Assembly (NCBI GenBank): GCA_964016885.1
Contig: OZ024745.1
Location: forward strand, 19,530,001 to 19,594,000
DNA from: Eledone cirrhosa
Taxonomy: Eukaryota
Length of the DNA: 64,000 bases
Reading direction: 5' to 3'
Below the pieces are notes generated by a model. It saw nothing but the letters and a program-made list of their open reading frames with translations. It did not search any database and was not told the origin of the DNA. Below are positions 6,517 through 51,321 of the stretch, in pieces. The translations under genes were made by a program, and so were the position numbers. Within the stretch, counting starts at the first letter, position 1. The number at the start of each line of letters is the position of its first letter.

Positions 6517-6590
<74 letters not shown>
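6491..6590. repeat. (TCT)n-(TAT)n compound microsatellite, left end of the retrotransposon array
   Basis: Direct reading. Confidence 0.95.
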
Positions 6591-6591
<1 letters not shown>

Positions 6592-7514
6592 CTTGAATCT
6601 CAGTCATTGATGTTGGTTAACTGGAAAGTCCGTTGGATTGAATATCAAGCCACTACCTGCAGCCTCAGATATTCAGGACGTATCGGAGGGTTCTTGCTGT
6701 TCCAAGCAAGCATGCCTTTTGAAGCGTTCCAAAAAGCGTGAAGGGGCCGATTTTCTTTAACCATCCCTGGAAACCTTTGGAGATAGTCCCCAGTGCGCCT
6801 ATGACAATCGGGATCACTTTGACTTCATGGCAGTTCCAAATCCTTTTCACCTCCCACTTTAGGTCCTGGTATCGGTTAATTTTCTCCCTCTCCTTCTCTT
6901 GCACTCTCGTGTCGAACGGGCAGGCCACATCCACAATCAGGCACGATCTTTTTTCTTTGTCCACAACCACCAGGTCAGGTCTATTGTGTTCCAGTTTTTT
7001 GTCCGTCTGTATCCTAAAATCCCACAGCACCTTCACCTGACTGTTCTCCATCACCGCCTCTGGCCTATGCTCATACCATTTCTCAGAATGTGGTAGATTG
7101 TTTACTTTGCACAGGTGCCAGTGGATCACCCTGCCCATCACATCGTGTCTCCAGCCCTTATAGTGGGTCTGGGCTAGGTGTTTACACTCGGACACAATGT
7201 GAGCCACAGTCTCCTCTCTCTCTCCACAGATCCTGCACAGTGGGCTAGCCTCCTCCTTGTAGATATGGTGCTTCAACCACTTCGTTTTGAGGGCCTGCTC
7301 CTGCGCAGCCATTAGCATTCCTTCTGTAGCCTTTTTGAGGTCTCCTCTTCTCAACCAGTTCCATGTCTGTGGATCTCTAAATTCAGTTTTCTCAAAGAAG
7401 GTACTATGAAGGGATTTTCCCTTAAGGCTGCTCTTCCTCCTTGATGTTATTTCCTCCTTGGATATCCCCTGGCCTACTGTCCCCTCCTTCAGTACAGCTC
7501 TGAGCATTGGCTCC

Positions 7515-7516
<2 letters not shown>
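6589..7516 (-). mobile_element. R4/Dong-type RLE retrotransposon, family A copy 1 (5'-truncated)
   Basis: ORF 6665-7507 has CRIC..ETVAHIVSEC zinc knuckle, RHD and RPD..D..EK..RY restriction-like endonuclease motifs; ~75 nt 3' UTR; flanked by (TTA)n. Confidence 0.92.
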
Positions 7517-7591
<75 letters not shown>

Positions 7592-7601
7592 GTTATTGTT
7601 A

Positions 7602-9456
7602 TTCCTTGAATCTCAGTCATTGATGTTGGTTAACTGGAAAGTCCGTTGGATTGAATATCAAGCCACTACCTGCAGCCTCAGATATTCAGGACGTATCGGA
7701 GGGTTCTTGCTGTTCCAAGCAAGCATGCCTTTTGAAGCGTTCCAAAAAGCGTGAAGGGGCCGATTTTCTTTAACCATCCCTGGAAACTTTTGGAGATAGT
7801 CCCCAGTGCGCCTATGACAATCGGGATCACTTTGACTTCATGGCAGTTCCAAATCCTTTTCACCTCCCACTTTAGGTCCTGGTATCGGTTAATTTTCTCC
7901 CTCTCCTTCTCTTGCACTCTCGTGTCGAACGGGCAGGCCACATCCACAATCAGGCACGATCTTTTTTCTTTGTCCACAACCACCAGGTCAGGTCTATTGT
8001 GTTCCAGTTTTTTGTCCGTCTGTATCCTAAAATCCCACAGCACCTTCACCTGATTGTTCTCCATCACCGCCTCTGGCCTATGCTCATACCATTTCTCAGA
8101 ATGTGGTAGATTGTTTACTTTGCACAGGTGCCAGTGGATCACCCTGCCCATCACATCGTGTCTCCAGCCCTTATAGTGGGTCTGGGCTAGGTGTTTACAC
8201 TCGGACACAATGTGAGCCACAGTCTCCTCTCTCTCTCCACAGATCCTGCACAGTGGGCTGGCCTCCTCCTTGTAGATATGGTGCTTCAACCACTTCGTTT
8301 TGAGGGCCTGCTCCTGCGCAGCCATTAGCATTCCTTCTGTAGCCTTTTTGAGGTCTCCTCTTCTCAACCAGTTCCATGTCTGTGGATCTCTAAATTCAGT
8401 TTTCTCAAAGAAGGTACTATGAAGGGGTTTTCCCTTAAGGCTGCTCTTCCTCCTTGATGTTATTTCCTCCCTGGACATCCCCTGGCCTACTGTCCCCTCC
8501 TTCAGTACAGCTCTGAGCATTGGCTCCTTACTATAGGTCACGTATTTGTATAGGTTGTTTTTCTCCATCTAAACACAGTCCTCTATGCTGATAAGACCTC
8601 TTCCACCCTCAGATCTCCTTAGGTAGAGTCTATCGACATCACTCCTCTTGTGGAACATGTTGTAGATAGTCAATAGCTTCCTAGTCTTCCTATCCATTTC
8701 TTTCTGTTCAGCAACATTCCATCTCTGAATTCCCGCACTGTACCTAATAATAGACACAGCTCGGGAATTTACTGCGCTTATGGCATTTCTGCTGTTCAGA
8801 TGTGACTTCAATACGCTCCTTACTCTCCGAATGTATTCAGTTCTTAACAATTCCTTCATTCTTTTGTTCTTTATGCCATCAGCCTCCAGAACGCCCAAAT
8901 ACTTGTATCCTTCCTCAGAGTCAATTTCCTTTATCATCTCACCTGTTGGTATCTGGATCCCGTTACTTCTGCTCAACCTACCCCTCTTCATCACAATGAC
9001 TCCACATTTACCAATACCAAACTGCATACATATATCACTGCTGAAAATACGGACAGTGTCAACAAGCACATCCAACTCCTTCTCACTTTTCCCGAAGAGC
9101 TTAAGATCGTCCATGAAGAGGAGATGATTGATGGTAAGCTCTCCCCTTCCCAACTTGTATCCTGCTCTCACTTTTCGCAGCATAATGGTCAAGGGCATCA
9201 GGGCAAGGACAAACAACAGAGGGCACAGGCTATCTCCCTGGAAGATACCTCTCTTGATCTTCACGCTTCCCAAGGATACTCCAGTTGATGTCAACTCTGT
9301 CTCCCAGGACCCCATACTCCTGCCTAGCAACTGTCTGATGTTATCTGCCACCCTGAAGATCTCCAGACTTTTGGTGATCCAGGAATGAGGCACCATGTCA
9401 AATGCCTTTCTGTAGTCTATCCATCCCATGGCAAGATCAGTGTGTCTCCTCCTGCA

Positions 9457-9457
<1 letters not shown>
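7602..9457 (-). mobile_element. R4/Dong family A copy 2 (5'-truncated, nonsense mutation)
   Basis: RT motifs (DYRKAFD, GIFQGDSL, FMDDLKL, YKYLG) plus RLE; TAG at 8569-8571 where copy 4 has CAG; (ATT)n on both sides. Confidence 0.93.
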
Positions 9458-9517
<60 letters not shown>

Positions 9518-9518
<1 letters not shown>

Positions 9519-10006
9519 AGTTGCATTTATCTTGCTTTATGTTCATACGAGTTATCACCAAGTCACAACCAGTCACCTCAAGAGACAATAAGGTCCGCCA
9601 TGTTCAAGAAAGAACATACATCTTTAGGTGTTTAGACTTGTGATGTACTTATATTGACAGAATCTTCCCATTAGTACTATCTTATGTATTTCTTCTATAC
9701 GCGGGTTTCCTGGGATTTGCGATAAGTAATCATTAGACCCCTTAGGTATCATTCCTAGAGAACCTACAACCACTGGTATTGTTTTAGTTTTCAAATTCCA
9801 CATTTTTACAATTTCTATCTCCAGGTCCTTATACTTGCTCAATTTTTCAAATGTTTTTCATACACACATTCTTATCTATAGGAACGGACATATCAATTAG
9901 CAGGGATACCCTCTTTTTAAAGTCCTTCACTTTTATATCAGGTCTATTTGTATCTATTTTTCGGTCTGTATGGATGCTGTTCCACAAGATTGAGATGTGA
10001 TCGTTT
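9518..10006 (-). mobile_element. R4/Dong family B copy 1 (short diverged 3' fragment)
   Basis: Same 3' UTR (cagttgcatttatcttgc...) and KYKDLEIEI..MW..VVVG.LG C-terminus as the long B copy, with small deletions. Confidence 0.88.
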
Positions 10007-10019
10007 TATTATTATTATT

Positions 10020-10195
10020 GGACGTCATGCTTTGACGCATAGAGTTACGGTCCTTTCCATTCTGAGTTCAAATCCCGCCGAGGTCAACTTTTCCTTTCAT
10101 CCTTACGGGATCGATAAAATAAAGTACCAGTAATGTACTGGGTAATTGCTGGCCTTGTGCCAAAAGTAGAAACAATTATTATTATTATTATTATT
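10020..10195 (+). mobile_element. tRNA-derived SINE (5'-truncated) with (ATT)n tail
   Basis: B box gagttcaaatcc and body cgataaaataaagtaccagtaat...gaaacaattatt shared with copies at 28.3, 29.2, 56.8 and 59.7 kb. Confidence 0.85.
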
Positions 10196-10197
10196 GT

Positions 10198-11077
10198 TCT
10201 TTGAGTCTCAGTCATTGATGTTAGTTAACTGGAAAGTTTGTTGAAATGAATATCAAGCCACTACCTGCAGCCTCAGATATTCAGGACGTATCGGAGGGTT
10301 CTTGCTGTTCCCAGCAAACATGCCTTTTGAAGCGTTCCAAAAAGCGTGGCGGGGCCAATTTTCTTTAACCATCCCTGGAAACTTTTTGAGATAGTACCTA
10401 GTGCGCCTATGACAATCGGGACCACTTTGATTTCATGGAAGATCCAAATCCTTTTTACCGCCCACTTTAAGTCCTGGTATCGGTTAATTTTCTCCCTCTC
10501 CTTCTCTTGCACTCTCGTGTCGAATGAGCAGGCCACATCCACAATCAGGCACGATCTTTATTCTTTGTCCACAACCACCAGGTCAGGTCTATTGTGTCCC
10601 AGTTTCTTGTCCGCCTGTATCCTAAAATCCCACAGCACCTTCACCTGATCGTTTTCTATCACCGACTCTGGCTTATGCTCATACCACTTCTCAGAATGTG
10701 GTAAATTGTTTACTTTGCATAGGTGCCAGTGGATCACCCTGCCCATCACATCATGTCTCCAGCCCTTATAGTGAGTCTGGGCTAGGTGTTTACACTCGGA
10801 TACAATGTGAGCCACAGTCTCCTCTCTCTCTCCACAGATCCTGCACAGTGGGCTAGCCTCGTCCTTGTAAATATGGTGTTTCAACCACTTCGTTTTGAGG
10901 GCCTGCTCTTGCGCAGCCATTAACATTCCTTCTGTAGCCCTTTTAAGGTCTCCTCTTTTCAACCAGTTCCATGTCTGTGGATCTCTGAATTCAGTTTTCT
11001 CAAAGAAGGTACTATGAAGGGATTTTTCCTGAAGGCTGCTCTTTCTCCTTCTCTTGCACTCTCGTGTCGAATGGGCA
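10198..11077 (-). mobile_element. R4/Dong family A copy 3 (older, 5'-truncated)
   Basis: ORF pieces 10273-10542 and 10558-10962 match the family A RLE, separated by a stop; more substitutions than the other A copies. Confidence 0.9.
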
Positions 11078-11140
<63 letters not shown>

Positions 11141-11348
11141 GGCGACCTACGTAGTAAATCGTATCATCGTGAGCTCCGCAAAGGTTTGTTATTTCCGTTT
11201 GTTAAAAATTGCCATTTATGGAAAATTTTATTGTTAACTGTTTATAAGCACACATACATTGTTTTCCGAAAAGGACACCCAAAAAGATTGGGGCCTTGTG
11301 CCCAAAATTTTAACTTTTATTATTATCAAAAAATTTCTTTGAAAAAAA

Positions 11349-11777
11349 ATGGCTACTTCACCTCTGCACGAAGCAGCTGAAAGCCTTCCTCACAAAATAA
11401 CACCTCACACCGACACCACCATTGTAAATGTTACTACGTTTGCCAACACAAAAAAAAATATAAGCAGTAGCAATATTTTAAATTTGTCTCAGGCAGACAT
11501 TCATTTCCCGCCATTACCAATGACTGCAGGTGTTAAAGCCTCCACCACCACCACCGCGACAATCACCACCACCACCACCACCGCGACAACAGAAACAAAA
11601 GAAGAAAAAAATAAATTAACTCGTGATATCGAAATGAAATCAAGCAAAATGGACTCTTCCCCACCAAAGACGACTGACGTCACCACCACCACAACTGAAA
11701 CTAAAATTAATATTAACGATAGCAACAACAACAACAATGACATTATAACCCCCCCCCCCTCAGTTTCGCCATCGTAG
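11349..11777 (+). CDS. Thr-rich N-terminal segment of Tx1 ORF1 (probably split from the main ORF1 at a C11 run)
   Basis: After the poly-C at 11749-11759 the ORF1 frame is open (SFAIVAKQFEAFM) into 11798. Confidence 0.55.
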   Translation: MATSPLHEAAESLPHKITPHTDTTIVNVTTFANTKKNISSSNILNLSQADIHFPPLPMTAGVKASTTTTATITTTTTTATTETKEEKNKLTRDIEMKSSKMDSSPPKTTDVTTTTTETKININDSNNNNNDIITPPPSVSPS

Positions 11778-11797
11778 CAAAACAATTCGAAGCATTT

Positions 11798-13333
11798 ATG
11801 GTAACTCAGGAAGATTTAGAAAATGCCAAACAAATGGTAAAGAAAGATGGGTACAGGGTCAGCCTCACGCCCCCACCTAATAAAATGGAGCATCGGCGCC
11901 TATGCACCGTGTCGTATAGAACAATACATGTAAAATCGCGTCGAGTGGAACGGGCATCCGAGTCCCAAATCCAAAAAGCTTTGGGACATGTGTGGGCAAG
12001 AAAAACCCACATCAGACGTGGGCAAAAGTATGGAACCGTGGATGTGTTCTTTGAAACACCAGAGGAGGCTAGAGAACACTCCATGGCCCCATTAAAAAGT
12101 GACGACTTCACACTCGTCCCAAGCTATTGTGGCCAGAGACTCGTAAAGATCAGGGTGACCCACGTTCCACCGGCCATCGAAATTCCCTGGCTAATAGCGG
12201 CTGTCCTCGCCGGCATCGAGGCCAACACGAAAATAATAACAATAGCAAAAGAAAAGCAGGAAAACTGGTCCGGATCTGGGATGGAGCTCCTGATCCAAGC
12301 GGACCAAAAAAGCATTGAGGAGATCCCAGAGGTAATAGACCTCACTGACGGCAGCCACCTCACGGTAATTGTCGAGGGCAGAAGACCTAGGTGTGTCGTT
12401 TGTGGTGAAGGAACCCACCTAAGGGCTTTCTGCCCTCAGGCTAAAAGGTTGAGGCCACCTCTCCTACCCACCCCAGTGACACAACCATCAACACCACCAG
12501 TAGCAGAGATGGCAGCAACAACTGTGGCAGCAACAACAGAAGCAACTATAACAGCAACAACCCCAGCAACAGTAGCAAAACCAACACCACTACCACCACC
12601 AGCAAAACCAACACCACCACCACCCAACGCTTCAGAACTAGCACCAGCGCCTACACCATCCACCACACCACAACCAAAACTAACGGCTGTGGAGGATTTT
12701 CCACTCCCCGGCCTATCACAACTGGAGACAGATTGTGACGACGAGGAGTGGGAAACGATATCCGGAAAAAAAAAAAGAAACCAAAAAAGAAAAAATTCTC
12801 TTCCTTCCCCCTCCAAAAACAAAATACAGAGGGAAACAAATAAACTAAGAAACAAAAAAGTTAGGACAGATATGCCACCATCCACACCAGCATCACCAAC
12901 CCCATCAACCCAAACACCAACACCATCACCATCATTAACTCCAACACCACCATCACCTACACCACAAAAGTCACCAAAATGCGAAACAGAAACAAACCCA
13001 CAACAAACGCAAACAAAACAAAACAACCAAAACGATACACACTACACAGCATTAAATTTGAACAACAAGCAATTATTGCACTACATCCAACACAACACCA
13101 GCATCACAGAAAAAGACTACACAACAACCCCAAAATTCACACCACCTCCACACATACAAATCACTCGCATCACACAGAAAACGTACATGACACGAAAACA
13201 AAAATTCCCCAAAGACATCGGAGACTTCCGACAAGCACTCTCCAGGAGGATTTATAAGGACATCCTTCCTGAGGAGGCCACAAGCAGTGAAAAGGATGGA
13301 AAAACCGTCCTTCCCCTACGAGAAGTAAGGTAA
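11798..13333 (+). CDS. Tx1 ORF1 (gag-like nucleic-acid-binding protein)
   Basis: CVVCGEGTHLRAFC = CX2CX4HX4C knuckle, followed by a Pro/Thr-rich region and WETISGKKKR basic patch. Confidence 0.88.
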   Translation: MVTQEDLENAKQMVKKDGYRVSLTPPPNKMEHRRLCTVSYRTIHVKSRRVERASESQIQKALGHVWARKTHIRRGQKYGTVDVFFETPEEAREHSMAPLKSDDFTLVPSYCGQRLVKIRVTHVPPAIEIPWLIAAVLAGIEANTKIITIAKEKQENWSGSGMELLIQADQKSIEEIPEVIDLTDGSHLTVIVEGRRPRCVVCGEGTHLRAFCPQAKRLRPPLLPTPVTQPSTPPVAEMAATTVAATTEATITATTPATVAKPTPLPPPAKPTPPPPNASELAPAPTPSTTPQPKLTAVEDFPLPGLSQLETDCDDEEWETISGKKKRNQKRKNSLPSPSKNKIQRETNKLRNKKVRTDMPPSTPASPTPSTQTPTPSPSLTPTPPSPTPQKSPKCETETNPQQTQTKQNNQNDTHYTALNLNNKQLLHYIQHNTSITEKDYTTTPKFTPPPHIQITRITQKTYMTRKQKFPKDIGDFRQALSRRIYKDILPEEATSSEKDGKTVLPLREVR

Positions 13334-13367
13334 GTGGTCTTTCCCATCTTTTCCACTCCTTTTCAAC

Positions 13368-16300
13368 ATGACCTCACTCAGAATAGGCAGCATAAATGCG
13401 CGTGGCTTGGGGTCGTCATGGAAGCAGGGCCACCTGCTCAACGACCTCAGGTCACTAAACATAGATGTAGTGGCCATCAGCGAGACCAGAATCTCCGAAG
13501 CACAGGCTTTCGCACCGATCTTCGGCGGCTACGATGTGTACGCATCTCCCAGCCGTCCGGGATCGGGGGGAGGAGTTGCTGTGCTTTTTCGGAGAGGTTT
13601 GGATCTTGCCATACGGGCCATCTTCCTGGACCCAGAAGGTAAGTTGGTGGTGCTGGACGTGACCAGCGGAGACGGGCAAGCTTTCAGGTTAGTGGCCGTC
13701 TATGCCCCGACAGGAGCAGGGCGGCCTGATTTCTTCCGGCGTCTGGAGACCTTTCTTGGAACGTCCCGCTCTTTAGTGTTAGTGGGCGACTGGAACGGGA
13801 TCTTAGATGCACGCTGGGATTGTGTGGGATTAGTGGATAGGGAAGGAGGGTGCAAGAGTCTCACCAACCTGCTCAGACGTTTTGAACTGTCTGACAGGTA
13901 CCGAATGGATTTCCCGAATGTACCAATGTGGACTTGGACAAATCGCATACGGTCATCCAGATCATATCTAGATAGAGTATTTTGTAGGGAAATAGATAGG
14001 TCTAGCATAGGCTGTCCACAATTCAAGATAGTCAGCTACACGGACCACAAATTCGTGATCTGTGTGCTTGAATTAGATAGGCTTCATAGACAAGGACCCG
14101 GCTACTGGAAGCTAAACGCGTCCTTACCAGCGCGCAAGGCCTACAGAGACCGGATTAGCGAACTAGTTAAGCGGGCGTTGACGGGGGCCATCGTCAACAA
14201 CAAGTGGTGGTTTGCTCTGAAAAGAGCAATTAGAATAGAGTCCATTAGGTTTAGTAAGACTTTAGCAATAGAGAAAAATAGAGCAGAGGGAGAATTAGTT
14301 AGAAAATTAGATGAGGCGCTTAGCAAAGGCATCGCGACCGACGTACTTGCGGCGAAATTGGCCCTTGACCAATTCTTCAATGCAAAGCACGAAGGCTGCG
14401 TTGTCAGAGCTAGGGTGCGTGCTCTCAGACACGAGGGGACGAAAGCCGTTGAATGGGCCCGAGTGGCGGAGGCGCGTCGTGGCAACAAAGCCACGATCCG
14501 GTCTTTGGTGGACCACGACGGGCGCATGCTACTCGATCCCGGGCAAATGTGTGAAGCTTTTCAGCGACACTTCGCTCAACTGTTCGGGGGCAGTGGCGGG
14601 CCGGATCGAGGGATGGACTTTAGTGTCTACCTCGACGGACTGCCGCGGCTTTCGGCCACTGAGGCGGAGTGTTGCGAAAAGCCGATAACAACCGCTGAAG
14701 TACGGGATGCAATGACTAGTTGCACAAGGGGCAAATCGCCTGGTTTGGATGGTCTGCCCTATGAACTTTACGTACAAATGCCAAACTTGTTCGGAGGCCT
14801 CTTGGCGGACGTCTACTGCAACTGGCAACAGAACGGGAGAATTCCCAGCTCTGTGAGCCGAGGAGCGGTGGCGCTGCTGAGAAAGGATCCGAACAAGGGG
14901 GATAACATAGATAATTTTAGGCCCATAACTCTGCTAAACACAGAGTTCAAGATTTTGGCCAAGGTGCTAGCAAAGAGGTTGGCGCTTGTCGTTGGTGGTC
15001 TGGTGGGAGAGGCACAGACATGCGCCATTCCCGACAGATCCATCCACGACAACCTCCACCTCATGCGATACATCGTAGAGAGGGTAGCTAGGGAACCTGG
15101 CACGGGTGGGTCTTTGATCAATTTAGATCAGTCGAAAGCCTTCGATAGGGTCGACCATCGTTACCTAGCGGCAGTCCTGAGGGCGGCTGGCTTTGGGCCC
15201 GTCTTCAGAGGCTGGATCGCTGCCATGCACAGCGACATCTGCTCTGTAGTGAGAGTGAACGGTCACCTTTCGGAACCGTTCAACATCATGCGCTCGGTCC
15301 GCCAAGGATGTCCCCTCTCGTCCCTATTGTACGTATTGACTCTCGAGCCATTACTGCACAAACTGGAGACGTTGAGGGGGGTCCCGCGCGAACTAGGATG
15401 CGGAAGATCCGTGTCAGCATATGCCGACGATGTCACCGTAGTGGTGTCGAACGCCAAACACATCGAGGCGATCGGCACTACACTAAGAGAATACGAAGCG
15501 GTGACAGGAGCAATGATCAACCAGGAAAAGTCAGTGGGCCTGCAGCTCGGCACCTGGAGAGGCAGGTCCATGCCGTCCAACAGCGTCGTCGGGCGCTGGA
15601 CGGACGGACCGGTTAAATTGCTAGGGGTCTGGTTCGGTCCAGACCTCCAGACGGACAAAAACTGGGACGAGGTGACGAGCAGGGTGGCTTCTCTCACCCA
15701 GAAATGGGCCGAGAGGAAGCTATCCCTAAAAGGTCGAGCGGAGGTGGCGAATGCGTACATCGCATCCGTCATCTACTACCGCCTGACCGTCGTACCTTGT
15801 CCTAAGCCCCGCCTGACTGCGCTGGAGCGTTTGCTCTTTCGCTTCTTGTGGAAGGGACGCGCTCCGATGGTCAGGCGGTCCATCTGCTGTCAACACCCGC
15901 TACGTGGAGGGCTGGGCATGCCGTGGCTGATGATGCGCAGACACGCGCTCAGGCTACGACATCTCCACCTCTTCCTCGACGGTGATCAGGTGTGGTCGCC
16001 GTTTGCAAGACACGTTTTTCCCCAGCTCGTCTCCTTGACGGAGCTGCAGTCCTGGGTCAAGCGAAGACCGAGAGGGAGCGCTTGGAGACTGGAATGTCTT
16101 CAGGCGCTCACAGCCCTCGACCAATCGGGCAATGTGATCGGTGGAAACTCCACCTTGGCGTTCTATAGGGGATTAGTGGAGGGGAAGAGCGACGACGTAC
16201 TTGGAGAAACTCTAGGCGTCGACGAAAATCAACTAGCCAATCTCTTCGGAAGGACTTTCGGGCCGGGGCCTATGGACAACTTCCAGAAATCCCTGGCCTG

Positions 16301-16787
16301 GCAGTGCTACCGAGGAGCTTTGCCAGTTCGGGATAAACTCTACAGGCATGGAGGTGCCGTCAGCCGGGCATGTCCGAGATGCGCGCAGGGCGACGAAACC
16401 GTCCTGCACGCACTCGTCCAGTGTCCGAGCATTGCTGACTTGTGGGTTTATGTCGAACACCTGCTGTCACGTGTAGGACGGATCCAGCTATCAGCTGAGT
16501 CCATCGTGAGGATTGCCCCACCCCCTTCCTTTAGCCTGGAAGGGCAGGCAGTTTTTATCTGTCTGGTGGCCATGGCGAAAGAGATAGTATGGTGGACACG
16601 TTTGAAAGGGCTGAAGACGAGCACTTACCTCTTCGGTGATGCCCTGATTAACTTTTTCAAATTTCATTTGAAAAGGAAAATCAGGGTAGAGAGGGAAGTG
16701 CTCTCTTCCCAGCATTTTGTTGAAAGATGGGTGAGAGAAGCAAGTATGGCCCGAATGAATGGGCCTTCTCTGAGTATGTGTCTGTAA
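13368..16787 (+). CDS. Tx1 ORF2: APE endonuclease + reverse transcriptase + C-terminal zinc finger (1139 aa, uninterrupted)
   Basis: SINARGL, ISET, VYAP, GDWN, YLDR, YTDH (APE); WKLN; KSPGLDG, FRPITLLN, LDQSKAFD, VRQGCPLS, YADD (RT); CPRC..H..C. Confidence 0.96.
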   Translation: MTSLRIGSINARGLGSSWKQGHLLNDLRSLNIDVVAISETRISEAQAFAPIFGGYDVYASPSRPGSGGGVAVLFRRGLDLAIRAIFLDPEGKLVVLDVTSGDGQAFRLVAVYAPTGAGRPDFFRRLETFLGTSRSLVLVGDWNGILDARWDCVGLVDREGGCKSLTNLLRRFELSDRYRMDFPNVPMWTWTNRIRSSRSYLDRVFCREIDRSSIGCPQFKIVSYTDHKFVICVLELDRLHRQGPGYWKLNASLPARKAYRDRISELVKRALTGAIVNNKWWFALKRAIRIESIRFSKTLAIEKNRAEGELVRKLDEALSKGIATDVLAAKLALDQFFNAKHEGCVVRARVRALRHEGTKAVEWARVAEARRGNKATIRSLVDHDGRMLLDPGQMCEAFQRHFAQLFGGSGGPDRGMDFSVYLDGLPRLSATEAECCEKPITTAEVRDAMTSCTRGKSPGLDGLPYELYVQMPNLFGGLLADVYCNWQQNGRIPSSVSRGAVALLRKDPNKGDNIDNFRPITLLNTEFKILAKVLAKRLALVVGGLVGEAQTCAIPDRSIHDNLHLMRYIVERVAREPGTGGSLINLDQSKAFDRVDHRYLAAVLRAAGFGPVFRGWIAAMHSDICSVVRVNGHLSEPFNIMRSVRQGCPLSSLLYVLTLEPLLHKLETLRGVPRELGCGRSVSAYADDVTVVVSNAKHIEAIGTTLREYEAVTGAMINQEKSVGLQLGTWRGRSMPSNSVVGRWTDGPVKLLGVWFGPDLQTDKNWDEVTSRVASLTQKWAERKLSLKGRAEVANAYIASVIYYRLTVVPCPKPRLTALERLLFRFLWKGRAPMVRRSICCQHPLRGGLGMPWLMMRRHALRLRHLHLFLDGDQVWSPFARHVFPQLVSLTELQSWVKRRPRGSAWRLECLQALTALDQSGNVIGGNSTLAFYRGLVEGKSDDVLGETLGVDENQLANLFGRTFGPGPMDNFQKSLAWQCYRGALPVRDKLYRHGGAVSRACPRCAQGDETVLHALVQCPSIADLWVYVEHLLSRVGRIQLSAESIVRIAPPPSFSLEGQAVFICLVAMAKEIVWWTRLKGLKTSTYLFGDALINFFKFHLKRKIRVEREVLSSQHFVERWVREASMARMNGPSLSMCL

Positions 16788-17055
16788 ATTAAAGGTGGAA
16801 AACTGGGAGAGGGCACTTGCCCTGGTGGTCAGGGCCACTGTGGTCTTTTAATGGGCTTTCTCCACAAATGTCCCTTGGAAGTCTCCCCCCTATTGGGGAA
16901 TTTTTCTTTGTTATTTTATTTCAACCTCTGTTTTTTTACACGCAGAAAGCCCATTTGTACCGTCCTGTATTGTCCTGTACTGTCCTTAATGTCTACTTTA
17001 TGTGAACCCTTGTGGTTAATAAAGAAAACATTATTATTATTATTATTATTATTAT

Positions 17056-17487
17056 AGTTGCATTTATCTTGCTTTATGTTCATACGAGTTATCACCAAGT
17101 CACAACCAGTGACCTCAAGAGACAACAAGGTCCGCCATGTTCAAGAAAGAACATACATACTCACACATGCATCTTTAGTGTTTAGACTTGTGATGTACTT
17201 ATATTGACAGAATCTTCCTTAGTATATGGGCAGTTCCCATTAGTACTATCTTTTGTATTTCTCCTATACGCGGGTTTCCTGGGATTTGCGATAAGTAATC
17301 ATTAAACCCCTTAGGTATCATTCCCAGAGCGCCCACAACCACTGGTATTGTTTTAGTTCTCAATTTCCACATTTTTCCAATTTCTATCTCCAGGTCCTTA
17401 TACTTGCTCAATTTTTCAAATGTTTTTATAGATACATTCTTGTCTATTGGAACGGACATATCAATTAGCAGGCATACCCTCTTTTTA
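17056..17487 (-). mobile_element. R4/Dong family B copy 2 (430-bp 3' fragment)
   Basis: Nearly identical to 17516-17950; (ATT)n on both sides. Confidence 0.92.
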
Positions 17488-17659
17488 ATTATTATTATTA
17501 TTATTATTATTATTACAGTTGCATTTATCTTGCTTTATGTTCATACGAGTTATCACCAAGTCACAACCAGTGACCTCAAGAGACAACAAGGTCCGCCATG
17601 TTCAAGAAAGAACATACATACTCACACATGCATCTTTAGTGTTTAGACTTGTGATGTAC

Positions 17660-20600
17660 TTATATTGACAGAATCTTCCTTAGTATATGGGCAGTTCCCA
17701 TTAGTACTATCTTTTGTATTTCTCCTATACGCGGGTTTCCTGGGATCTGCGATAAGTAATCATTAGACCCCTTAGGTATCATTCCCAGAGCGCCCACAAC
17801 CACTGGTATTGTTTTAGTTCTCAATTTCCACATTTTTCCAATTTCTATTTCCAGGTCCTTATACTTGCTCAATTTTTCAAATGTTTTTATAGATACATTC
17901 TTGTCTATTGGAACGGACATATCAATTAGCAGGCATACCCTCTTTTTAAAGTCCTTCAATATTATATCAGGTCTATTTGCATCTATTTTTCGGTGTTTGG
18001 ATGCTAAAGTTCCACAAGATTGAGATGTGATCTTTTTCAAGTATGGGAGGTGGTTGATGCTCCCACCAATTCTTTTGATGGGGCAGGTCAAAATGCTTAC
18101 ACATTATCCAATGTATGTATTGTGCAGCTCTGTCATGCCTGTTTAGGTATTCGGTTGGAGCTATAGGACTGCACATTGAAATTATATGGTCAATGGTCTC
18201 TGGTTGTTTTTTGCATACACGGCATAATGGGCTGCATCCATTTTTTATTATGTTGACTTGGTAATTTTTTGTTGGCAGACACTGATCTTGTGCTGATATA
18301 ATCAGTCCTTCAGTCTCCGATTTCAGTCCAGAGGATGCCAACCACTGATGGGTTAAAGTTTTGTCAACATCATGATTGTTAGCTCGCTCTGGGTATTTTC
18401 CATACAGAGGCTTTTCTTGCCATTTCTTAGCCAGTTTCTGTAGCAGTTCTTTCTTTGCAGTTACTTTTACCTGCTTTGCTTTTTCTGTGTTTTCCATTTC
18501 AGCAGTAAATGGGACTTCTGAAATTTGTAGTCCATTACTGTATCTTTGTGCATCTTTTGTAATGGAATATGATCTTTTGGTGCTTTCGTGTTTCAAAACG
18601 AGTTTGATCATCCAATCATGTGATTCCCTTAGATATGTGGATAATCCAATTGTTGCAGTTTTCAACGCAATGTCTAACTGGATTAACCCACGTCCTCCTT
18701 CTTTCCTAGGGAGATATATTCTATCTATATCTGCCTTAGGGTGATGCATTCTGTGCATGGTTAAGAATTTTCGAATTTTTGTATCGAGCCTACGGATCTC
18801 TGTGCTTGACCAGTTGATGACATTGTAACTGTAGGTTACTACTGGTATGGCAAGCGTGTTTATGGCATCGATCCTATTCCTTGCATTCAATTCCGTTCTT
18901 AAGATTGCTCTTACTCTGCGGTAACATTCCTTCCTTATCCTTTCCCTCATTGTCGAGTGCTTGATTCCGTCTCCTTCACAAACACCTAGATATTTGTAAG
19001 TTTTTTCTTGATCAAGTTCTCTTATCACGTTCCCCCGATCAAGATTAATGTCTGAACTCTTCAGCAGCTTTCCTCTGGTGAACGTTGCTTTGGCGCATTT
19101 ATCTAGTCCAAACTCCATTTTAATGTCATCACTGAACTGCTCCACAGTGGATAATAGCCCTTGCAATTGTTCATCATTTTTTACAAGTAGTTTCAGGTCA
19201 TCCATGTAGAACAGGTGATTAATGGTTTTGTCATAGACTTTATATCCATGTTTTGTTTCATTGAGCATTTTACTTAATTGTATAAGTGCGATGCAGAATA
19301 AAAGCGGTGATAAAGAGTCACCCTGAAAAATTCCACAATTAATATTAACTTCTCCAGCTTCCAGTGATTTTGTTTCACTATTCAAAAGGAGTGTCGTTTT
19401 CCATGTCTTCATACTGAATGACAAAAACCTCCTGACAACGGGGGATATTTTGAAAATCTCTAAACATTTTTCAATCCAACTGTGTAGCAAACTATCGAAT
19501 GCTTTTTTATAATCTATCCAAGCAATCGATAGATTTTTGTGTCTATTATGACAATCTTCCAGTATCATTTTGTTAACCAGAAGCTGATCCTTACAGCCAT
19601 ATGAGCCTCGTTTACACCCTTTCTGCTCAATGGGAAATAGGTCATTTGTTATCAGGTGGTCATATGTGTATTCAGTTAGGACTGATGTTAAAATTTTATA
19701 CATTGTGGTCAAGCAAGTTATCGGTCTGTAATTTTTTGGATTGTTTGTCTCATCATTCTTCGGAAGCAGGAATGTAATGCCGTTAACTAGCCATGATGGT
19801 ATCTTTTCTGGCTCCTTAACTATTTCATTGTAAAGTTGGGCTAACAGCTCATGAGACTCTGTGAAGGCATTTATCCAAAAGTTTTGTATTTTGTCTTTTC
19901 CTGGGGATTTCCATTTGCTGGTTTTTCTTAGAGCCAAGCGCAACCGTTCAACTGTTATATTTTCCCATATTTGTTCCTCAAGGTGAGCTGTATCTTTCAT
20001 TTGTCTGTCTATCCATGGGGCATGTATGTTATGAACTTTTTCTTCGGTCCAGATCTTTTCCCAGAATTCTTGCACTTCCTCCTTGGGTGGTATTGATTTA
20101 GCAGTTATTGTTGACTTACCAATTTTTCTGTAGAAGTTTCTTTGGTTGTTTTTGAACATATTATTGTCCTTATAGAATCTAGATCGTTTTTCAAAGCGCC
20201 TTATACGAGCAGCTTTGGCCGACACTTTTTGCTTGATTATTTCTATCAGCATGTCTATGTCACATGTTGATTTTATACTGTACTTTTTTTTCAATTTTCT
20301 AAGTTTAGTTTGTTTAACATGTTCACCTACTTTATAGTTTGTTAAAATTTCTATGTCAGATCGGAGAAGGTTTATTTGGCGATTGATGTTCTCTTGCCAA
20401 GTAGATTTCTTGTGGGAATTCCTTTGTTTTTTCATCTTCACTCCACATAAGTGAGTGGTGACTTTAGCCGATGCATAATAGAGATGATTTAAATCAGCAA
20501 TGTTTAGTTTGTTTGTGATGATAATGTTTTTGAGAATTATGTTAGTCTTCTGTATTATCTTTTGGTTCTGTTTGGAGTTCTGGATCTTAGGGAGGGTGTC

Positions 20601-21308
20601 TCGTTGCCCCATGTCAGATTCTTTCATTTTCATCCATTCGATCATAATTTCATCCTTCAAGTTGGCAAGTTCATTCTCATTCATTTCTTTATCATTTACG
20701 ATCTCATTATTTTCATTTGGAGTTTCATCCTGAGCATGCACTCCCTCTACTTTTTCGATCCTTTCTTTAATTTGTTCTGTTGCCAGTGATTCCGCCCCAA
20801 CCCTGGGTTTCGAAGTGTTACAGTTTACCTCGTTTTCACTGACACATGTTTCATTTTCCCTTCGCTGACTTTGTGCTAATAGCTTGATCTGATCAATTTC
20901 TATATCAGTTAGTAACTTTTTTCTTACAATATTTCTTCGTATATTGGCTAGTTTGTTACTGTCAATATAGCCTCTGTTTTCGGGATGTTTCTTTTTCCAG
21001 TTGATATATGTCTGTTCTGTATTCGATGTATTTGATGGGTAGTACATGGCAGTGTAGAAAGCCTCAAGGACTTCTTTATTATCTTCCCTTGACCATTTTT
21101 CTCTCTTTTTCTTTGGATTTCTTGGTGGTGAGCATGGAGGGCCAACAGTAGGAGTATTCCGGTTATGGGAGGTCTCCAGCTCCGAAGTGATGGGAAGGTT
21201 TGAACCATTAGCTGATTTTTCGACCCCAGTCTGGTTCCTCTCTGAGGGACGCGGCCTTTTTTTACCCGGGTGACGGCCGATCCGGTATGAGATTTTATCA
21301 TTAGACAT
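17660..21308 (-). pseudogene. Dong family B single ORF (Myb-like N-terminus, RT, CCHC, RLE) with a 2-bp deletion near 17995
   Basis: KWSREDN, WKSPGKD, YRPITCL, EQKGC, YMDDLKL, CRVC..HIISMC, RHD, RPDII; cggtgtttgg here versus cggtctgtttgg in copy 4 explains the split ORFs. Confidence 0.92.
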
Positions 21309-21552
21309 TTATTTTATTTTGTCCCGTTTTATCCTTATCCGCCAAGGGGTAATCATTTCGTGTTACCACTTCTAGAACGAGTGTCAACCAAGACTAGAGG
21401 GGTCGTTCTCCCCTAGAGACACGGCTATTCCCCGCCGGCCGCCATCCCGGTATTTCTTGGTCATCGGGTTTTCTTTTTGTTGTTTTTTTTTAAATTGTTA
21501 TTATCATGAGTGGTTCCTTAATGTGAGCATTGTGTGGCTTAAGAATGAAATT

Positions 21553-21605
21553 ATTAATAATTGTCTCCACTACAGGCACAAGGCCAGCAATCACCCAGTG
21601 CATTA
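21553..21605 (-). mobile_element. 3' tail fragment of the same SINE family
   Basis: Reverse complement reads aatgcactgggtgattgctggccttgtgcctgtagtggagacaattatt. Confidence 0.65.
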
Positions 21606-22457
21606 ATATAATATACTTTTTGCTGTAGTTGCCTGTTATTGTTGTTGGCTATGTCGGTGGTGGTGCCGGGGCTTTTTATATTGTTGGTGAGGAAGGGGTG
21701 AGCCAGCAGTCCCATAGTTGTTGATGTTGACGTTTGGCCGGTGGCCAGGTCACTAAGTCAATCTATTTATATCTTTTGCTAGCCTCTCCCTTGTCTAGTG
21801 ATACCGCCACCTTCCCCTTTCTCTCTCAAGTTAACAGGGGAATAGTGGTGGTAGCAATGAAGGAGTGGTGGCGGCGGCGATGGGATAGTGGTAGCAAGAT
21901 GGTGGATGGGGTGGTGGCGTTGTGGTTACTGGGTTTTGTGATATGTAGTATCTATGAGTTTGTGTTCGTATGTTTAATATATATTGTGTTGACATATTCC
22001 CGTAAAATTGGAATTAAACATTTTGTTAAAATTTGAGACAATAATAATAGTAATTATTAATATCATGCCGGGATTGATGGTGGTGGTGGTGAAATTGCCG
22101 TTATCTGGCTGTTATATTTAGTGTGATGGGATAGGTGGTGTATCAAGTTTCTGGTGTTGGTGAAATTGCTGTTATTTGGCTGTTCTATATAGTGTAGACA
22201 GAGGGTGTTTTCTTCCATTTATAACCATTTTCTTTTTTTGAATACAAAATATATAATACAAAATTGAATATTTGAGCGATATAACAATATAATATGGATC
22301 CGAAATTTTATGGGACTTCATTCGGTGGTTTATGCAACATTTGTACTAAGAATTGTTATTTCACAATTGATTTAAATATGTTAAAAATCAAAAACTTACG
22401 GGAGCGATTTCATGACCTTCTACCACCTCGTGCGTCTTCTTCCCTTATTATTATTAT

Positions 22458-24299
22458 TTGCATTTATCTTGCTTTATGTTTATACGAGTTATCACCAAGT
22501 CACAACCAGTGACCTCAAGAGACAACAAGGTCCGCCATGTTCAAGAAAGAACATACATATTCACACATGCATCCTTAGTGTTTAGACTTGTGATGTACTT
22601 ATATTGACAGGATCTTCCTTAGTATATGGGCAGTTCCCATTAGTACTATCTTTTGTATTTCTCCTATACGCGGGTTTCCTGGGATTTGCGATAAGTAGTC
22701 GTTAGACCCCTTAGGTATCATTCCCAGAGCGCCTACAACCACTGGTATTGTTTTAGTTCTCAATTTCCACATTTTTCCAATTTCTATCTCCAGGTCCTTA
22801 TACTTGCTCAATTTTTCAAATGTTTTTATAGATACATTCTTGTCTATTAGAACAGACATATCAATTAGCAGGCATACCCTCCTTTGAAAGTCCTTCAATA
22901 TTATATCAGGTCTATTTGCATCTATTTTTCGGTCTGTTTGGATGCTAAAGTTCCACAAGATTGAGATGTGATCTTTTTCAAGTATGGGAGGTGGTTGATG
23001 CTCCCACCAATTCTTTTGATGGGGCAGGTCAAAATGCTTACACATTATCCAATGTATGTATTGTGCAGCTCTGTCATGCCTGTTTAGGTATTCGGTTGGA
23101 GCTATAGGACTGCACATTGAAATTATATGGTCAATGGTCTCTGGTTGTTTTTTGCATACACGGCATAATGGGCTGCATCCATTTTTTATTATGTTGGCTT
23201 GGTAATTTTTTGTTGGCAGACACTGATCTTGTGCTGATATAATCAGTCCTTCAGTCTCCGATTTCAGTCCAGAGGATGCCAACCACTGATGGGTTAAAGT
23301 TTTGTCAACATCAGGATTGTTAGCTCGCTCTGGGTATTTTCCATACAGAGGCTTTTCTTGCCATTTCTTAGCCAGTTTCTGTAGCAGTTCTTTCTTTGCA
23401 GTTACTTTTACCTGCTTTGCTTTTTCTGTGTTTTCCATTTCAGCAGTAAATGGGACTTCTGAAATTTGTAGTCCATTACTGTATCTTTGTGCATCTTTTG
23501 TAATGGAATATGATCTTTTGGTGCTTTCGTGTTTCAAAACGAGTTTGATCATCCAATCATGTGATTCCCTTAGATATGTGGATAATCCAATTGTTGCAGT
23601 TTTCAACGCAATGTCTAACTGGATTGTTCATCATTTTTTGCAAGTAGTTTCAGGTCATCCATGTAGAACAGGTGATTAATGGTTTTGTCATAGACTTTAT
23701 ATCCATGTTTTGTTTCATTGAGCATTTTACTTAATGGTATAAGTGCGATGCAGAATAAAAGCGGTGATAAAGAGTCACCCTGAAAAATTCCACAATTAAT
23801 ATTAACTTCTCCAGCTTCCAGTGATTTTGTTTCACTATTCAAAAGGAGTGTCGTTCTCCATGTCCTCATACTGAATGACAAAAACCTCCTGACAACGGGG
23901 GATATTTTGAAAATCTCTAAACATTTTTCAATCCAACTGTGTGGCAAACTATCGAATGCTTTTTTATAATCTATCCAAGCAATCGATAGATTTTTGTGTC
24001 TATTATGACAATCTTCCAGTATCATTTTGTTAACCAGAAGCTGATCCTTACAGCCATATGAGCCTCGTTTACACCCTTTCTGCTCAATGGGAAATAGGTC
24101 ATTTGTTATCAGGTGGTCATATGTGTATTCAGTTAGGACTGATGTTAACATTTTATACATTGTGGTCAAGCAGGTTATCGGTCTGTAATTTTTTGGATTG
24201 TTTGTCTCATCATTCTTCGGTAGCAGGAATGTAATGCCGTTAACTAGCCATGATGGTATCTTTTCTGGCTCCTTAACTATTTCATTGTAAAGTTGGGCT
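22458..24299 (-). mobile_element. R4/Dong family B copy 4 (5'-truncated, 484-bp internal deletion)
   Basis: Matches copy 3 except that the junction at 23623-23625 fuses positions equivalent to 18684 and 19169. Confidence 0.92.
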
Positions 24300-24334
24300 A
24301 TTATTATTATTATTATTATTATTATTGTTGTTAT

Positions 24335-27103: not shown

Positions 27104-27170
<67 letters not shown>

Positions 27171-27174
27171 TATA

Positions 27175-27217
<43 letters not shown>

Positions 27218-38739: not shown

Positions 38740-38869
38740 CATCTATATTAAAACTGTTATACTCTGCTATGTATTGAGTACCTTACTTACTGTGGTTACC
38801 TCCGATTCAACCCGGAATAACGTACATTTTAGCACTCTCTGTGCCCCTTATAACCTTCATCAAGAAACC

Positions 38870-48505: not shown

Positions 48506-48542
<37 letters not shown>

Positions 48543-51278
48543 TTCTTTATTTACCATAAAGGCATAAAAAGAAGGGACAAATACAAAGGGGGAGTTTACA
48601 TATAATCGAGTAAAAAGGGTGTAACATGAAAATAATCGAAAATAACCTCAAAAGGGAGGGGACGTGATGGGGGTTGCACACACCCCCGAAAAAGTGTGCA
48701 ATCCTTTGCCCGGGGAGCACATGGAGAAGGTGCTCCCCTCTCCTTTACTTCTTTACCTACAGGATGGTATACAGAGAAGGCCCATTTACACGAGCCATTC
48801 TCGCCACTATCACCCACCTTTCATAAAACTGCCTGTGGCCAAGCACCTCTCTCTCCATTCTTATCCTTCTTCCGAAGTGATATCGGAAGAAGTAGACCAG
48901 ACTATGGCCAGAGAGGAAGTTGCCTGACCTCAGACCTTTCAATCGTGTCCACCAAACAACCTCTTTCAACATGGCTATTACGCACAGAAAAACCGCCTTT
49001 GCTTCCTTTGTGAAGAGGGGAGGCGGTTTGATTGTCATCACGGACTCGGCGGTCAATTTAATCGGCGCCACCCGCGACAGCAGTTGTTCGGCGTAGCCCC
49101 ACAGATCAGCCACGCCCGGACATTGCACCAATGCCTGCGCAACGGTTTCTTCGTGACGCACGCATCTAGGGCAAATCTTTTTTGAGGGATCCCTGCCCGG
49201 GCGCCCGTGTCTGTAGAGCCTCTCTCGAACGGGTAGAGCCCCCCGGTAGCACTGCCAGGCCAGTGACTTCTGGAAGTTGTCCATTGGTCCTGGGCCGAAA
49301 GTCCTACCGAACAGGCTGGCCAGTTCGTCTTCTTCCATGTCCAGCGACTCTCCAAGGGTGTCATCGCCCCTGCTAGCCACCAGCCCTCTATAGAATGCTG
49401 AGGTGGATTCTCCACCGATGGCCTGGCCCGCTTGCCAGAGAGCCCTGAGCGCCTGAGCACACTCAGTGTGCCAGTCTCCCAGTTTTCCGGATCTTTGCTT
49501 GACCCAGGACTGTAGCTCGGTGAGTGAGACGAGTCTCGGAAAGGCTCGTTTCACGAACGGAGCCCACACCGGTTGACCAGTGAGGAATACCTGTAGGTGC
49601 CGTAGCCTTAATGCGTGCCTACGCATCATCAACCACGGCATCCCCAGCCCTCCTTTCGAAGGTTGTTGGCAGCAGATGGATCTTCTCACCATAGGAGGAC
49701 GCTTCTTCCAAAGAAATTGGAAGAGCATGCGTTCCATGGTGGTGAGTGTTTCCTTAGGGCAAGGCACGACAGTCAGGCGGTAGTAAGTGACGGACGCTAT
49801 GTAAATGTTCGCCACCTCCGCCCGGCCTTTTAGGGACAGCTTACACTTGGCCCATTTCTGGGTTAGTGCAAACACCTTGTTCGTAACCTCGTTCCAGTTC
49901 TTTTCCACCTGGAGGTCCGGTCCAAACCAGACCCCAAGCAACTTTACCGGGCCCTCCGTCCAGTGTCCGACGACACCGTCAGGAGGCATCGGTCTGCCTC
50001 TCCACGTTCCGAGTTGCAGCCCGATGGATTTTTCCCGGTTCAGTTTCGCTCCTGACAACCTTTCGTAATCCTCCAGTAAGGTACCGATCGCCTCGATCTC
50101 CGAGTTGGTCGATACCATTACTGTTACGTCATCGGCGTAGGCCGACACCGCTTTGCTCAATCCTGGTTCCAGTGGGATACCCTGCAACAACTCCAACTTC
50201 CTCAGTAAAGGCTCGAGAGTCAATACGTACAGAAGGGAGGAGAGAGGGCACCCCTGTCGAATGGATCGTGTGATTTCGAACGGCTTCGAAAGGTAGCCGT
50301 TCACCTTGATCCTAGAACAGATGTGGTTGCTATGTAGGGCAGTGATCCAGCCTCTGAAAACAGGACCGAACCCAGCCGCCGCTAGCACCGCATCCAGGTA
50401 ACCATGGTCGACCCTATCGAAGGCCTTAGACTGATCTAAGTTGATCAGGGCCCCACCGAAGCCGGGTTTGTTGCCAACCCTCTCTATGATGTATCGCATG
50501 AGGTGGAGGTTATCGTGAATGGACCTGGATGGGATAGCACATGTCTGCGCATCTCCCACCAGGCCTCCCACGACAAGCGCCAACCTCTTTGCTAACACCT
50601 TGGCCAAAATCTTTAACTCTCGTCCTTCCTCACTAGCGTGACAGCACAGGGAATTCTCCCGTTCTGTTGCCAGTTGCAGTAGACCGCCTCGAGGAGTTCG
50701 GGGAACAAGTCCGGCATAGCTAGATATAGTTCGTATCGAAGACCATCGAGACCCGGGGGTTTGCGTTTGCCGCATTGGCTCAGCACGTCCTCTATCTCAG
50801 CGGCTGAAATCGGCTCCTCGCAGGACTTCGCCTCCCTGTCCGAGAGACGCGGCAGGCCGTCGAGGTATGGACCGAAGTCCACGTCCCCAACCGGCCCCCC
50901 GCCCCTTCCGAACAATCCGGCAAAGTGTTTTTGAAAAGCCTCGCACATCTGCTTAGGTTCAAGGATCACCCGTCCATCCTGGTCTCGCAAAGACCGGATA
51001 GTGGATCTGCTCCCTCTTTTGGCTTCTGTCACGCGGGCCCAGCTAACAACTTTGGTCCCCTCGTTTCCCAGAGCACGTATTTTGCTTCGGACGGTGCAGC
51101 CTTCGTGTTTCGCGTCGAAGAACTGGCCCAGGGCCGTTCTCGACGCTAGCACTCTGGCCACGTCGCCGCTTCTAATTGCCTCTTCTACACTATCTACCAA
51201 CTCCCTTTCCTTCCTATTTCTATTTGAGGCTAACTCCTTACTAAATTCTATAGAGACTACTCTAATCTCCCTTTTGAG
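48543..51278 (-). mobile_element. Second Tx1-clade element (5'-truncated) inserted in (GATA)n
   Basis: ORF2 remnant colinear with 13368-16787; (GATA)n at 48506-48542 and 51279-51368; 3' end ggtaAATAAAgaaa then (TCTA)n. Confidence 0.92.
48757..51278 (-). pseudogene. Tx1 ORF2 RT region, APE domain missing, deletion/frameshift near 50615-50645
   Basis: LDQSKAFD, IRQGCPLS, YADD, CPRC; the GDNIDNFRPITLLN block is deleted relative to the first Tx1. Confidence 0.9.
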
Positions 51279-51321
51279 AGATAGATAGATAGATATATAG
51301 ATAGATAGATAGGTAGATAGG

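What the first reader, a model, noticed from the sequence alone, without database searches (positions are those of the whole stretch)
11141..17055. Near-intact Tx1-clade element apparently specific for (ATT)n
Seen: pure (ATT)n abuts both the 5' end (11141) and the 3' end; ORF2 is uninterrupted over 1139 aa; there is no poly(A), with AATAAA followed within a few bases by the repeat. Known: some Tx1-clade families are microsatellite-specific (Kibi for TC, Koshi for TTC repeats). I do not recall an ATT-specific one, but cannot check. Inference: a young, possibly active family with a new APE specificity.
Basis: partly seen in the sequence, partly recalled or inferred. Interest (0 to 1): 0.72.

Follow-up and report, generated by a model that had tools for sequence, protein, structure and literature searches.

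The report
Jumping gene that targets ATT repeats
A young jumping gene with thousands of copies, likely in an octopus, sits almost always inside ATT repeats in one fixed register, likely because its DNA-cutting enzyme aims there; related elements are known to aim at other simple repeats, so this is a new target rather than a new kind of system.

Summary
Confirmed. Window 11141-17029 is a full-length L1-group (likely Tx1-clade) LINE between (ATT)21 and (ATT)8. ORF2 (1139 aa) is open; ORF1 (two predicted RRMs plus a CCHC knuckle) is frameshifted, so this copy is probably not autonomous. Genome-wide, 1570 of 1687 exact 5' ends follow (ATT)3 in one phase. A second 5' module on the same ORF2 gives 2416 of 2505; 3' ends give 5303 of 6405. 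Background is about 0.1%. Of 19 true 5' truncations, 9 still abut ATT, which argues for a pre-existing target, but 6 abut no repeat. The copy lies in a 21-kb stack of Dong-type elements using the same repeat from the other strand. A sister family in this window (endonuclease 60% identical, two loop differences) sits in (CTAT)n. Repeat-targeting Tx1 families (TC, TTC, TTCC) and TAA-targeting Dong are published; nine searches showed no ATT-targeting Tx1, but Repbase and Dfam were not searchable. Activity and nicking are untested. This scan has reported the same family several times on other DNA.

The parts
11078..11140 (+). (ATT)21 array at the 5' flank; read as pre-existing target
11141..11348 (+). 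5' UTR of the type A 5' module; first base G directly after ATT
11349..13333 (+). ORF1, frameshifted at the C run 11749-11759. Core (11792-12451) predicted as two tandem RRMs; CCHC knuckle at 12392-12433; low-complexity Thr/Pro/Asn ends
13368..16787 (+). ORF2, 1139 aa: APE-type endonuclease (catalytic motifs at aa 7, 37, 111, 140, 200, 225), reverse transcriptase (YADD at aa 685), C-terminal Cys/His motif (aa 1002-1019)
16788..17029 (+). 3' UTR ending in a predicted short hairpin (loop TTGTG) and AATAAA (17018-17023); no poly(A)
17030..17055 (+). (ATT)8+AT array at the 3' flank, shared with the 3' end of a Dong-type element on the other strand
6519..27217 (-). Host stack: mostly 5'-truncated copies of two RLE-type (likely R4/Dong) families, 38% identical to each other, separated by (AAT)n arrays
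10020..10174 (+). 5'-truncated tRNA-type SINE between ATT runs, in the same orientation as the LINE, with a similar 3' end
48541..51283 (-). 5'-truncated sister LINE (59-69% aa identity over ORF2) flanked on both sides by (CTAT)n

Best explanation
This is a young, high-copy L1-group (likely Tx1-clade) LINE whose copies sit in (ATT)n microsatellites in one orientation and register, likely because its endonuclease nicks the repeat and its reverse transcriptase then copies the RNA into the nick. Shown: the two-ORF anatomy, the flank statistics, the fixed ATT|G 5' junction, ATT at about half of the truncated junctions, and stacking with other elements in the same arrays. Inferred: the endonuclease nicks the (AAT)n strand at its only T-A step, as L1 endonuclease cuts T/A. 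A short ATT end of the RNA would pair with the freed 3' end and prime synthesis. The second strand would be cut at ATT/ATT, leaving repeat on both sides. Each insertion leaves arrays that can be hit again, by this family head-to-tail or by Dong-type elements from the other strand, which would build the stacks. This copy would need ORF1 protein in trans, unless its homopolymer frameshift is an assembly error.
For: 5' ends: 1570 of 1687 type A and 2416 of 2505 type B follow (ATT)3 in phase. The 5 misses among the first 100 type A places on contig C1 all lie in interrupted or shifted ATT runs. 3' ends: 5303 of 6405. Background: 0.12% of window positions; only 34 of 661, 2 of 256 and 2 of 181 ATTAT sites in three control sets lie inside arrays. 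Flanks beyond the arrays differ between loci. In 60 loci taken in positional order, all 34 full-length copies start in an ATT run, and 9 of 19 true 5' truncations do too (classed by eye). Truncated copies cannot carry a repeat from the element's own 5' end. Some 3' ends carry only one ATT before another repeat (L094, L118, L086), so the long tail is not fixed by the element. Two different 5' modules (ORF1 cores 54% identical) on one ORF2 share the target, which points to ORF2 or the 3' end as determinant. A sister family with a 60% identical endonuclease sits in (CTAT)n. Endonuclease catalytic motifs align with L1. Tx1L endonuclease nicks its own target almost exclusively in vitro (PMC1950540, passages).
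Against: 6 of 19 true truncations abut no repeat, 3 abut (CTT)n or (ACT)n, and 1 abuts a single ATTAT; in a second small set 2 of 5 abut none. No empty site was seen, so pre-existence of the array is inferred. One 34-bp duplication with a shared interruption (L096) is ambiguous, because its neighbour is 99.6% identical. Several interruptions next to the 5' junction are not repeated downstream (L063, L079, L130, L134). A SINE with a similar 3' end has (ATT)3 upstream in only 4 of 30 loci; if this family's enzyme moves it, the enzyme is looser than the LINE flanks suggest. The nick position and the RNA ends were not observed.
Confidence: 0.8

Rival explanations
1. The enzyme recognises only a short motif such as ATTAT. 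The RNA's ATT tail pairs best inside arrays, and long insertions elsewhere are purged, so the array specificity comes from priming and selection rather than from the endonuclease.
For: The SINE shares the TTGTG motif and ATT end but inserts mostly at single ATTAT sites, often with short duplications of about 12-20 bp. One LINE insertion (L107/L108) lies at a lone ATTATAT in a minisatellite. The endonuclease loop differs from the CTAT sister's at only two positions. Loop grafts did not transfer Tx1L specificity (PMC1950540, passages).
Against: Only 1-5% of ATTAT sites in control sets lie in arrays, against 93-96% of full-length 5' ends and 9 of 19 truncations, many under 1.2 kb. The copies are very young (98.75% identity), leaving little time for purging. 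The SINE may use another LINE family.
Confidence: 0.13
2. The repeats belong to the element: transcripts begin inside an upstream ATT array and end in an ATT tail, so every full-length copy brings ATT to both ends wherever it lands.
For: Full-length copies show ATT far more often (34 of 34) than truncated ones (9 of 19). The 5' junction phase is fixed.
Against: Truncated copies still abut ATT far above the 0.35% any-phase background. Upstream arrays are often the tails of other elements. 40 of 60 3' ends lie directly beside another ATT-associated element, which random landing would not give. Some 3' ends carry a single ATT.
Confidence: 0.05
3. The association is a by-product of duplication: element plus flanking array were copied by unequal crossing-over or segmental duplication from a few founders.
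For: Head-to-tail neighbours are common (13 of 60) and one pair is 99.6% identical.
Against: Copies lie on many contigs with unrelated sequence beyond the arrays, and truncation points differ between copies.
Confidence: 0.02

Closest known systems
Kibi (TC)n and Koshi (TTC)n of teleosts; crocodilian Tx1 families in (TTCC)n/(TTTC)n (PMC4494074: passages and sections 14-15 read; PMC3812793: passages)
   Same: APE-type L1-group LINE that inserts into a microsatellite. The 20% flank criterion used in PMC4494074 is exceeded by far.
   Different: The target is the GC-free (ATT)n, not a TC-rich repeat. The host is likely a mollusc. There are at least two 5' modules on one ORF2. No phylogenetic link to Kibi or Koshi could be tested.
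Dong (TAA-targeting; Bombyx, Anopheles, Biomphalaria; PMC3812793: passages; R4 clade membership recalled)
   Same: Same microsatellite. Likely Dong-type copies share the arrays in this window, and 25 of 60 sampled 3' ends sit tail-to-tail with them.
   Different: The neighbours carry a C-terminal restriction-like motif and no APE domain, are 22-25% identical in the RT region, and sit on the opposite strand. The shared target is likely convergent.
Tx1L of Xenopus and human L1 (PMC1950540: passages; PDB hits)
   Same: Endonuclease scaffold and catalytic motifs align; ORF2 hits L1 ORF2p at E 2e-53. L1 cuts at a T/A step.
   Different: Tx1L targets one site in Tx1D and human L1 is promiscuous with a poly(A) tail. 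The hairpin loop here aligns to L1's without gaps and is two residues shorter than the grafted Tx1L loop.
'L1-Tx1' families annotated in Octopus vulgaris (PMC13282606: passages and one supplement row)
   Same: 80 L1-Tx1 families are annotated, 13 called recently active; this family or a relative is plausibly among them.

Membership tests
L1 group non-LTR retrotransposon | ORF2 with N-terminal APE endonuclease, RT and C-terminal Cys/His motif | tested here: met
   Pfam PF03372, PF00078, PF13966 above cut-off; motifs located
L1 group non-LTR retrotransposon | ORF2 closer to L1 than to other solved non-LTR proteins | tested here: met
   PDB: L1 ORF2p E 2e-53 over aa 5-855, R2 proteins E 6e-21 or weaker. 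The PDB holds few clades, so this is a coarse test.
Tx1 clade | Type I ORF1 (RRM plus CCHC knuckle) rather than Transposase_22 | tested here: met
   Model pLDDT 85.7 matches tandem-RRM structures, best E 1.4e-4 but TM only about 0.3. The three Cys are invariant and the His nearly so in 11 sequences; Pfam zf-CCHC is only weak. Type I is described as consistent with Tx1 in PMC5203782 (passages) but also occurs in plant L1.
Tx1 clade | RT phylogeny groups with named Tx1 elements (Tx1L, Keno, Kibi, Koshi) | not testable with these tools
   The homologues carry no usable names. The quick tree joins the ATT and CTAT families (SH-aLRT 100) but holds no named Tx1 reference.
Microsatellite-specific Tx1 families (Kibi/Koshi type) | More than 20% of flanks are the same repeat (criterion of PMC4494074) | tested here: met
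   93%, 96% and 83%
Microsatellite-specific Tx1 families (Kibi/Koshi type) | Truncated, independently inserted copies keep the target | tested here: met
   9 of 19 in ATT runs, 3 in other trinucleotide repeats, 7 otherwise; weaker than for full-length copies
Kibi or Koshi proper | Target (TC)n or (TTC)n | tested here: not met
   Target is (ATT)n; only 2 of 19 truncated 5' junctions lie in (CTT)n
Microsatellite-specific Tx1 families (Kibi/Koshi type) | Endonuclease nicks the target repeat | not testable with these tools
   Needs a nicking assay
Dong / R4 clade | C-terminal restriction-like endonuclease and no APE | tested here: not met
   The element has an N-terminal APE; the restriction-like motif is seen only in the neighbours
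Currently active LINE | Both ORFs open in at least some copies | tested here: met
   6 of 38 copies selected for an open ORF2 also have an ORF1 of 657 aa or more; 0 of 11 full-length copies; the window copy does not
Currently active LINE | Transcription or polymorphic new insertions | not testable with these tools
   No RNA holder listed; only contigs could be laid

The most novel reading that the evidence does not exclude
One young Tx1-type lineage has split into sister families that target (ATT)n and (CTAT)n with endonucleases 60% identical and recognition loops that differ at two residues. The ATT family swaps whole 5'UTR-ORF1 modules without changing target and converges with unrelated Dong-type elements on the same repeat. 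Its tails may make up roughly a sixth of one class of long ATT arrays in this genome. The pair would be a natural experiment showing which part of a LINE (endonuclease residues or RNA tail) switches a microsatellite target.
Probability: 0.5. Interest if true: 0.6.

Novelty: new variant of a known kind. Interest (0 to 1): 0.42.

Why it matters
How APE-type retrotransposons find microsatellites is described as not well understood (PMC3812793, passage). A young family with thousands of junctions, some copies with both ORFs open, and a close sister with another target makes this testable by domain and tail swaps. It also offers a candidate integrator for a repeat that is probably low-risk, and a reason why ATT arrays in this genome nucleate long retroelement stacks. 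The concept itself is established for other repeats, so the surprise is moderate.

Tried and rejected
Expression: no RNA holder listed. Four contig sets laid on the element show presence only and gave no transcript ends. Target-site duplication length: searched in the 65 copies with both flanks; pure arrays hide it, and the one marked case (L096) may be a tandem duplication, so it is undecided. Tx1 placement by tree: no named references, and the careful search did not finish. ORF1 homologue search: 0 of 532 candidates at E 0.001. The weak Pfam MBD hit on ORF1 is below its cut-off and was rejected. The Atlas did not hold ORF2; a homologue gave unnamed EEP-RT clusters. The SINE was first used as a negative control, but its similar 3' end makes it two-edged. 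Kibi/Koshi identity was rejected on target, Dong identity on endonuclease type. Supplements of PMC4494074 were not held and its Fig. 3 target labels could not be seen; they may list further Tx1 targets. PMC85248 was not held. Kojima and Fujiwara 2004 was not read.
Full report
Observation. The element runs from G11141 to 17029 on the + strand, between (ATT)21 (11078-11140) and (ATT)8+AT (17030-17055). AATAAA ends 6 bases before the repeat and there is no poly(A). ORF2 is open for 1139 aa (13368-16787) and carries APE endonuclease, RT and zf-RVT domains. Its best solved relative is human L1 ORF2p (E 2e-53), and the endonuclease catalytic motifs align. ORF1 (11349-13333) is split at an 11-C run; of 36 aligned copies, 35 have a 9-base stretch there and one has 12 C. 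Whether the break is real or an assembly slip is untested. The ORF1 core is predicted with pLDDT 85.7 and matches tandem-RRM structures, followed by a CCHC knuckle. This is the type I ORF1 that PMC5203782 (passages) calls consistent with Tx1. The window copy also has Arg at one endonuclease loop position where all 38 parsed copies have Gly.

Host. The genome has 3.0 Gb in 1796 contigs. An octopus is my inference from its size and repeat content; no call named it.

Flanks genome-wide. The first 21 bases match exactly 1687 times, and 1570 of these (93%) follow (ATT)3 in the same phase. The 5 misses among the first 100 places on C1 all lie in interrupted or shifted ATT runs. All 30 loci fetched with the 5' end, including the window copy, start ATT|G, with unrelated sequence beyond the array. 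A 24-base 3' motif matches 6405 times, 5303 (83%) followed by (ATT)3. Background is 0.12% of window positions in phase and 0.35% in any phase. Of ATTAT sites in three control sets, 34 of 661, 2 of 256 and 2 of 181 lie inside arrays.

Two 5' modules. Of the first 77 3' ends on C1, I fetched the 60 with no exact type A 5' match upstream. Twenty carry a different 5' module of about 2260 bp (type B), joined near the end of ORF1 to an ORF2 about 96% identical. The ORF1 cores are 54% identical. Type B 5' ends match 2505 times, 2416 (96%) after (ATT)3 in phase. The target therefore travels with ORF2 or the 3' end, not with the promoter-ORF1 module (inference).

Target or cargo? Of the 60 loci, 34 are full length (15 A, 19 B) and all start in an ATT run. 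Of the other 26 I dropped 7: four interrupted, rearranged or chimeric, two internally deleted, one duplicate. Among the 19 true 5' truncations, classed by eye, 9 abut an ATT run, 3 abut (CTT)n or (ACT)n, 1 abuts a lone ATTAT and 6 abut no repeat. An earlier set gave 3 of 5. Truncated copies cannot inherit a 5' repeat, so this supports a pre-existing target; the misses could be later deletions or off-target events. A few 3' ends have one ATT followed by another repeat, so the long tail is not fixed by the element. Duplication length stayed undecided.

Age. Among the 150 best endonuclease hits, 41 lie in an open frame of exactly 1152 codons (my count). Of 40 such or near-such loci fetched, 38 were parsed; 6 also have an ORF1 of 657 aa or more, and 37 type A copies (including the window's) average 98.75% identity. 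This set is selected. Among 11 full-length copies, one had an open ORF2 and none had both. The family is young and could be active; no activity was shown.

Neighbourhood. The copy lies in a 21-kb stack (6519-27217) of two RLE-type families on the other strand, separated by (AAT)n. I read them as R4/Dong from their motifs (recalled) and from the published TAA target of Dong (PMC3812793, passages). Beyond the 3' array of the 60 sampled copies lie a Dong-type 3' end (25), a 5' end of this family (13) or the SINE (2). The genome has 31,790 arrays of at least 7 units that start in one of three phases. With 48 of 60 sampled tails that long, this family's tails would be roughly 16% of that class (estimate).

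Sister with another target. At 48541-51283 (-) a truncated relative is flanked on both sides by (CTAT)n. In 20 further loci, 13 of 16 visible 3' ends and 8 of 8 visible 5' ends are at CTAT repeats (by eye). Its endonuclease is 60% identical. The hairpin-loop segment differs at two positions from the version found in 37 of 38 ATT-family copies. The two families join on a quick RT tree (SH-aLRT 100). PMC1950540 (passages) shows that this loop affects target choice but that grafts do not transfer specificity, so the two residues are a lead only.

Mechanism. Shown: anatomy, flanks, register, stacking. Inferred from L1 biology: a nick at the T-A step of the (AAT)n strand, priming aided by a short ATT end of the RNA, a second cut at ATT/ATT, and repeat left on both sides as fresh targets. 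The main rival is a looser enzyme with specificity from tail pairing and selection. It gains from the SINE at 10020-10174, which shares the TTGTG motif and ATT end yet has (ATT)3 upstream in only 4 of 30 loci. It loses on the low share of ATTAT sites in arrays and on the youth of the copies.

Comparison and novelty. Published: Kibi (TC), Koshi (TTC) and crocodilian Tx1 (TTCC/TTTC) in PMC4494074 (passages, sections 14-15); Dong on TAA in PMC3812793 (passages); target-specific clades in PMC4640811 (passages). Cephalopod repeat papers list L1-Tx1 without targets in what I saw (PMC13282606 passages and one supplement file; PMC8967140 passages), and PMC9115989 has no occurrence of Tx1 in its main text. 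PMC3747384 (passages) adds only that the Tx group is target-specific. Nine searches showed no ATT-targeting Tx1 in their listings or in the passages read. Repbase, Dfam, subscription papers and the supplements and figure of PMC4494074 could not be seen. It works like Kibi/Koshi and is not one of them by target; Tx1 membership rests on anatomy, not on a referenced tree. This scan has reported the same family, the CTAT sister and the SINE link on other DNA; these notes are not independent support. Verdict: a real, well-supported new target variant of a known kind; interest 0.42.

Noticed in passing
window 48541-51283 (-); L231-L250: Sister LINE family flanked by (CTAT)n, endonuclease 60% identical, two differences in the hairpin loop; its 3' end is nearly the same as the ATT family's.
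   Followed up: yes
L095, L104, L131 and others; junction near window 13286: A second 5'UTR-ORF1 module (type B) joined to the same ORF2; 2505 exact 5' ends. Further ORF1 types appear in L032 (56% identical core) and L089 (31%).
   Followed up: partly
window 10020-10174; L201-L230: tRNA-type SINE whose 3' end shares the TTGTG motif and ATT tail; it inserts mostly at single ATTAT sites with short duplications. Possible passenger of a Tx1-type family.
   Followed up: partly
window 6519-27217 (-): 21-kb stack of two RLE-type (likely Dong) families on (AAT)n, including one 1111-aa open frame at 17973-21308 and a 461-bp tandem duplication at 17030-17949.
   Followed up: partly
window 13321-13340: A splice-donor-like sequence (AG/GTAAGT) lies at the ORF1 stop, just before ORF2; the CTAT sister region and L089 were not compared systematically.
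   Followed up: no
L251-L290: ORF1 is broken in most copies whose ORF2 is open (32 of 38 not full length or not parsed); homopolymer slippage or assembly error is possible.
   Followed up: no
window 35377-36970 and 38735-40702: RT-like open frames with a possible GIY-YIG-type C-terminus, likely Penelope-like (recalled motif, not tested); 34.3-37.7 kb appears to form a long inverted repeat from the mirrored tandem-repeat list.
   Followed up: no
window 2209-6133 and 31857-32979: A 3.9-kb G-rich 20-mer minisatellite and a 1.1-kb (ACC)n-like array.
   Followed up: no
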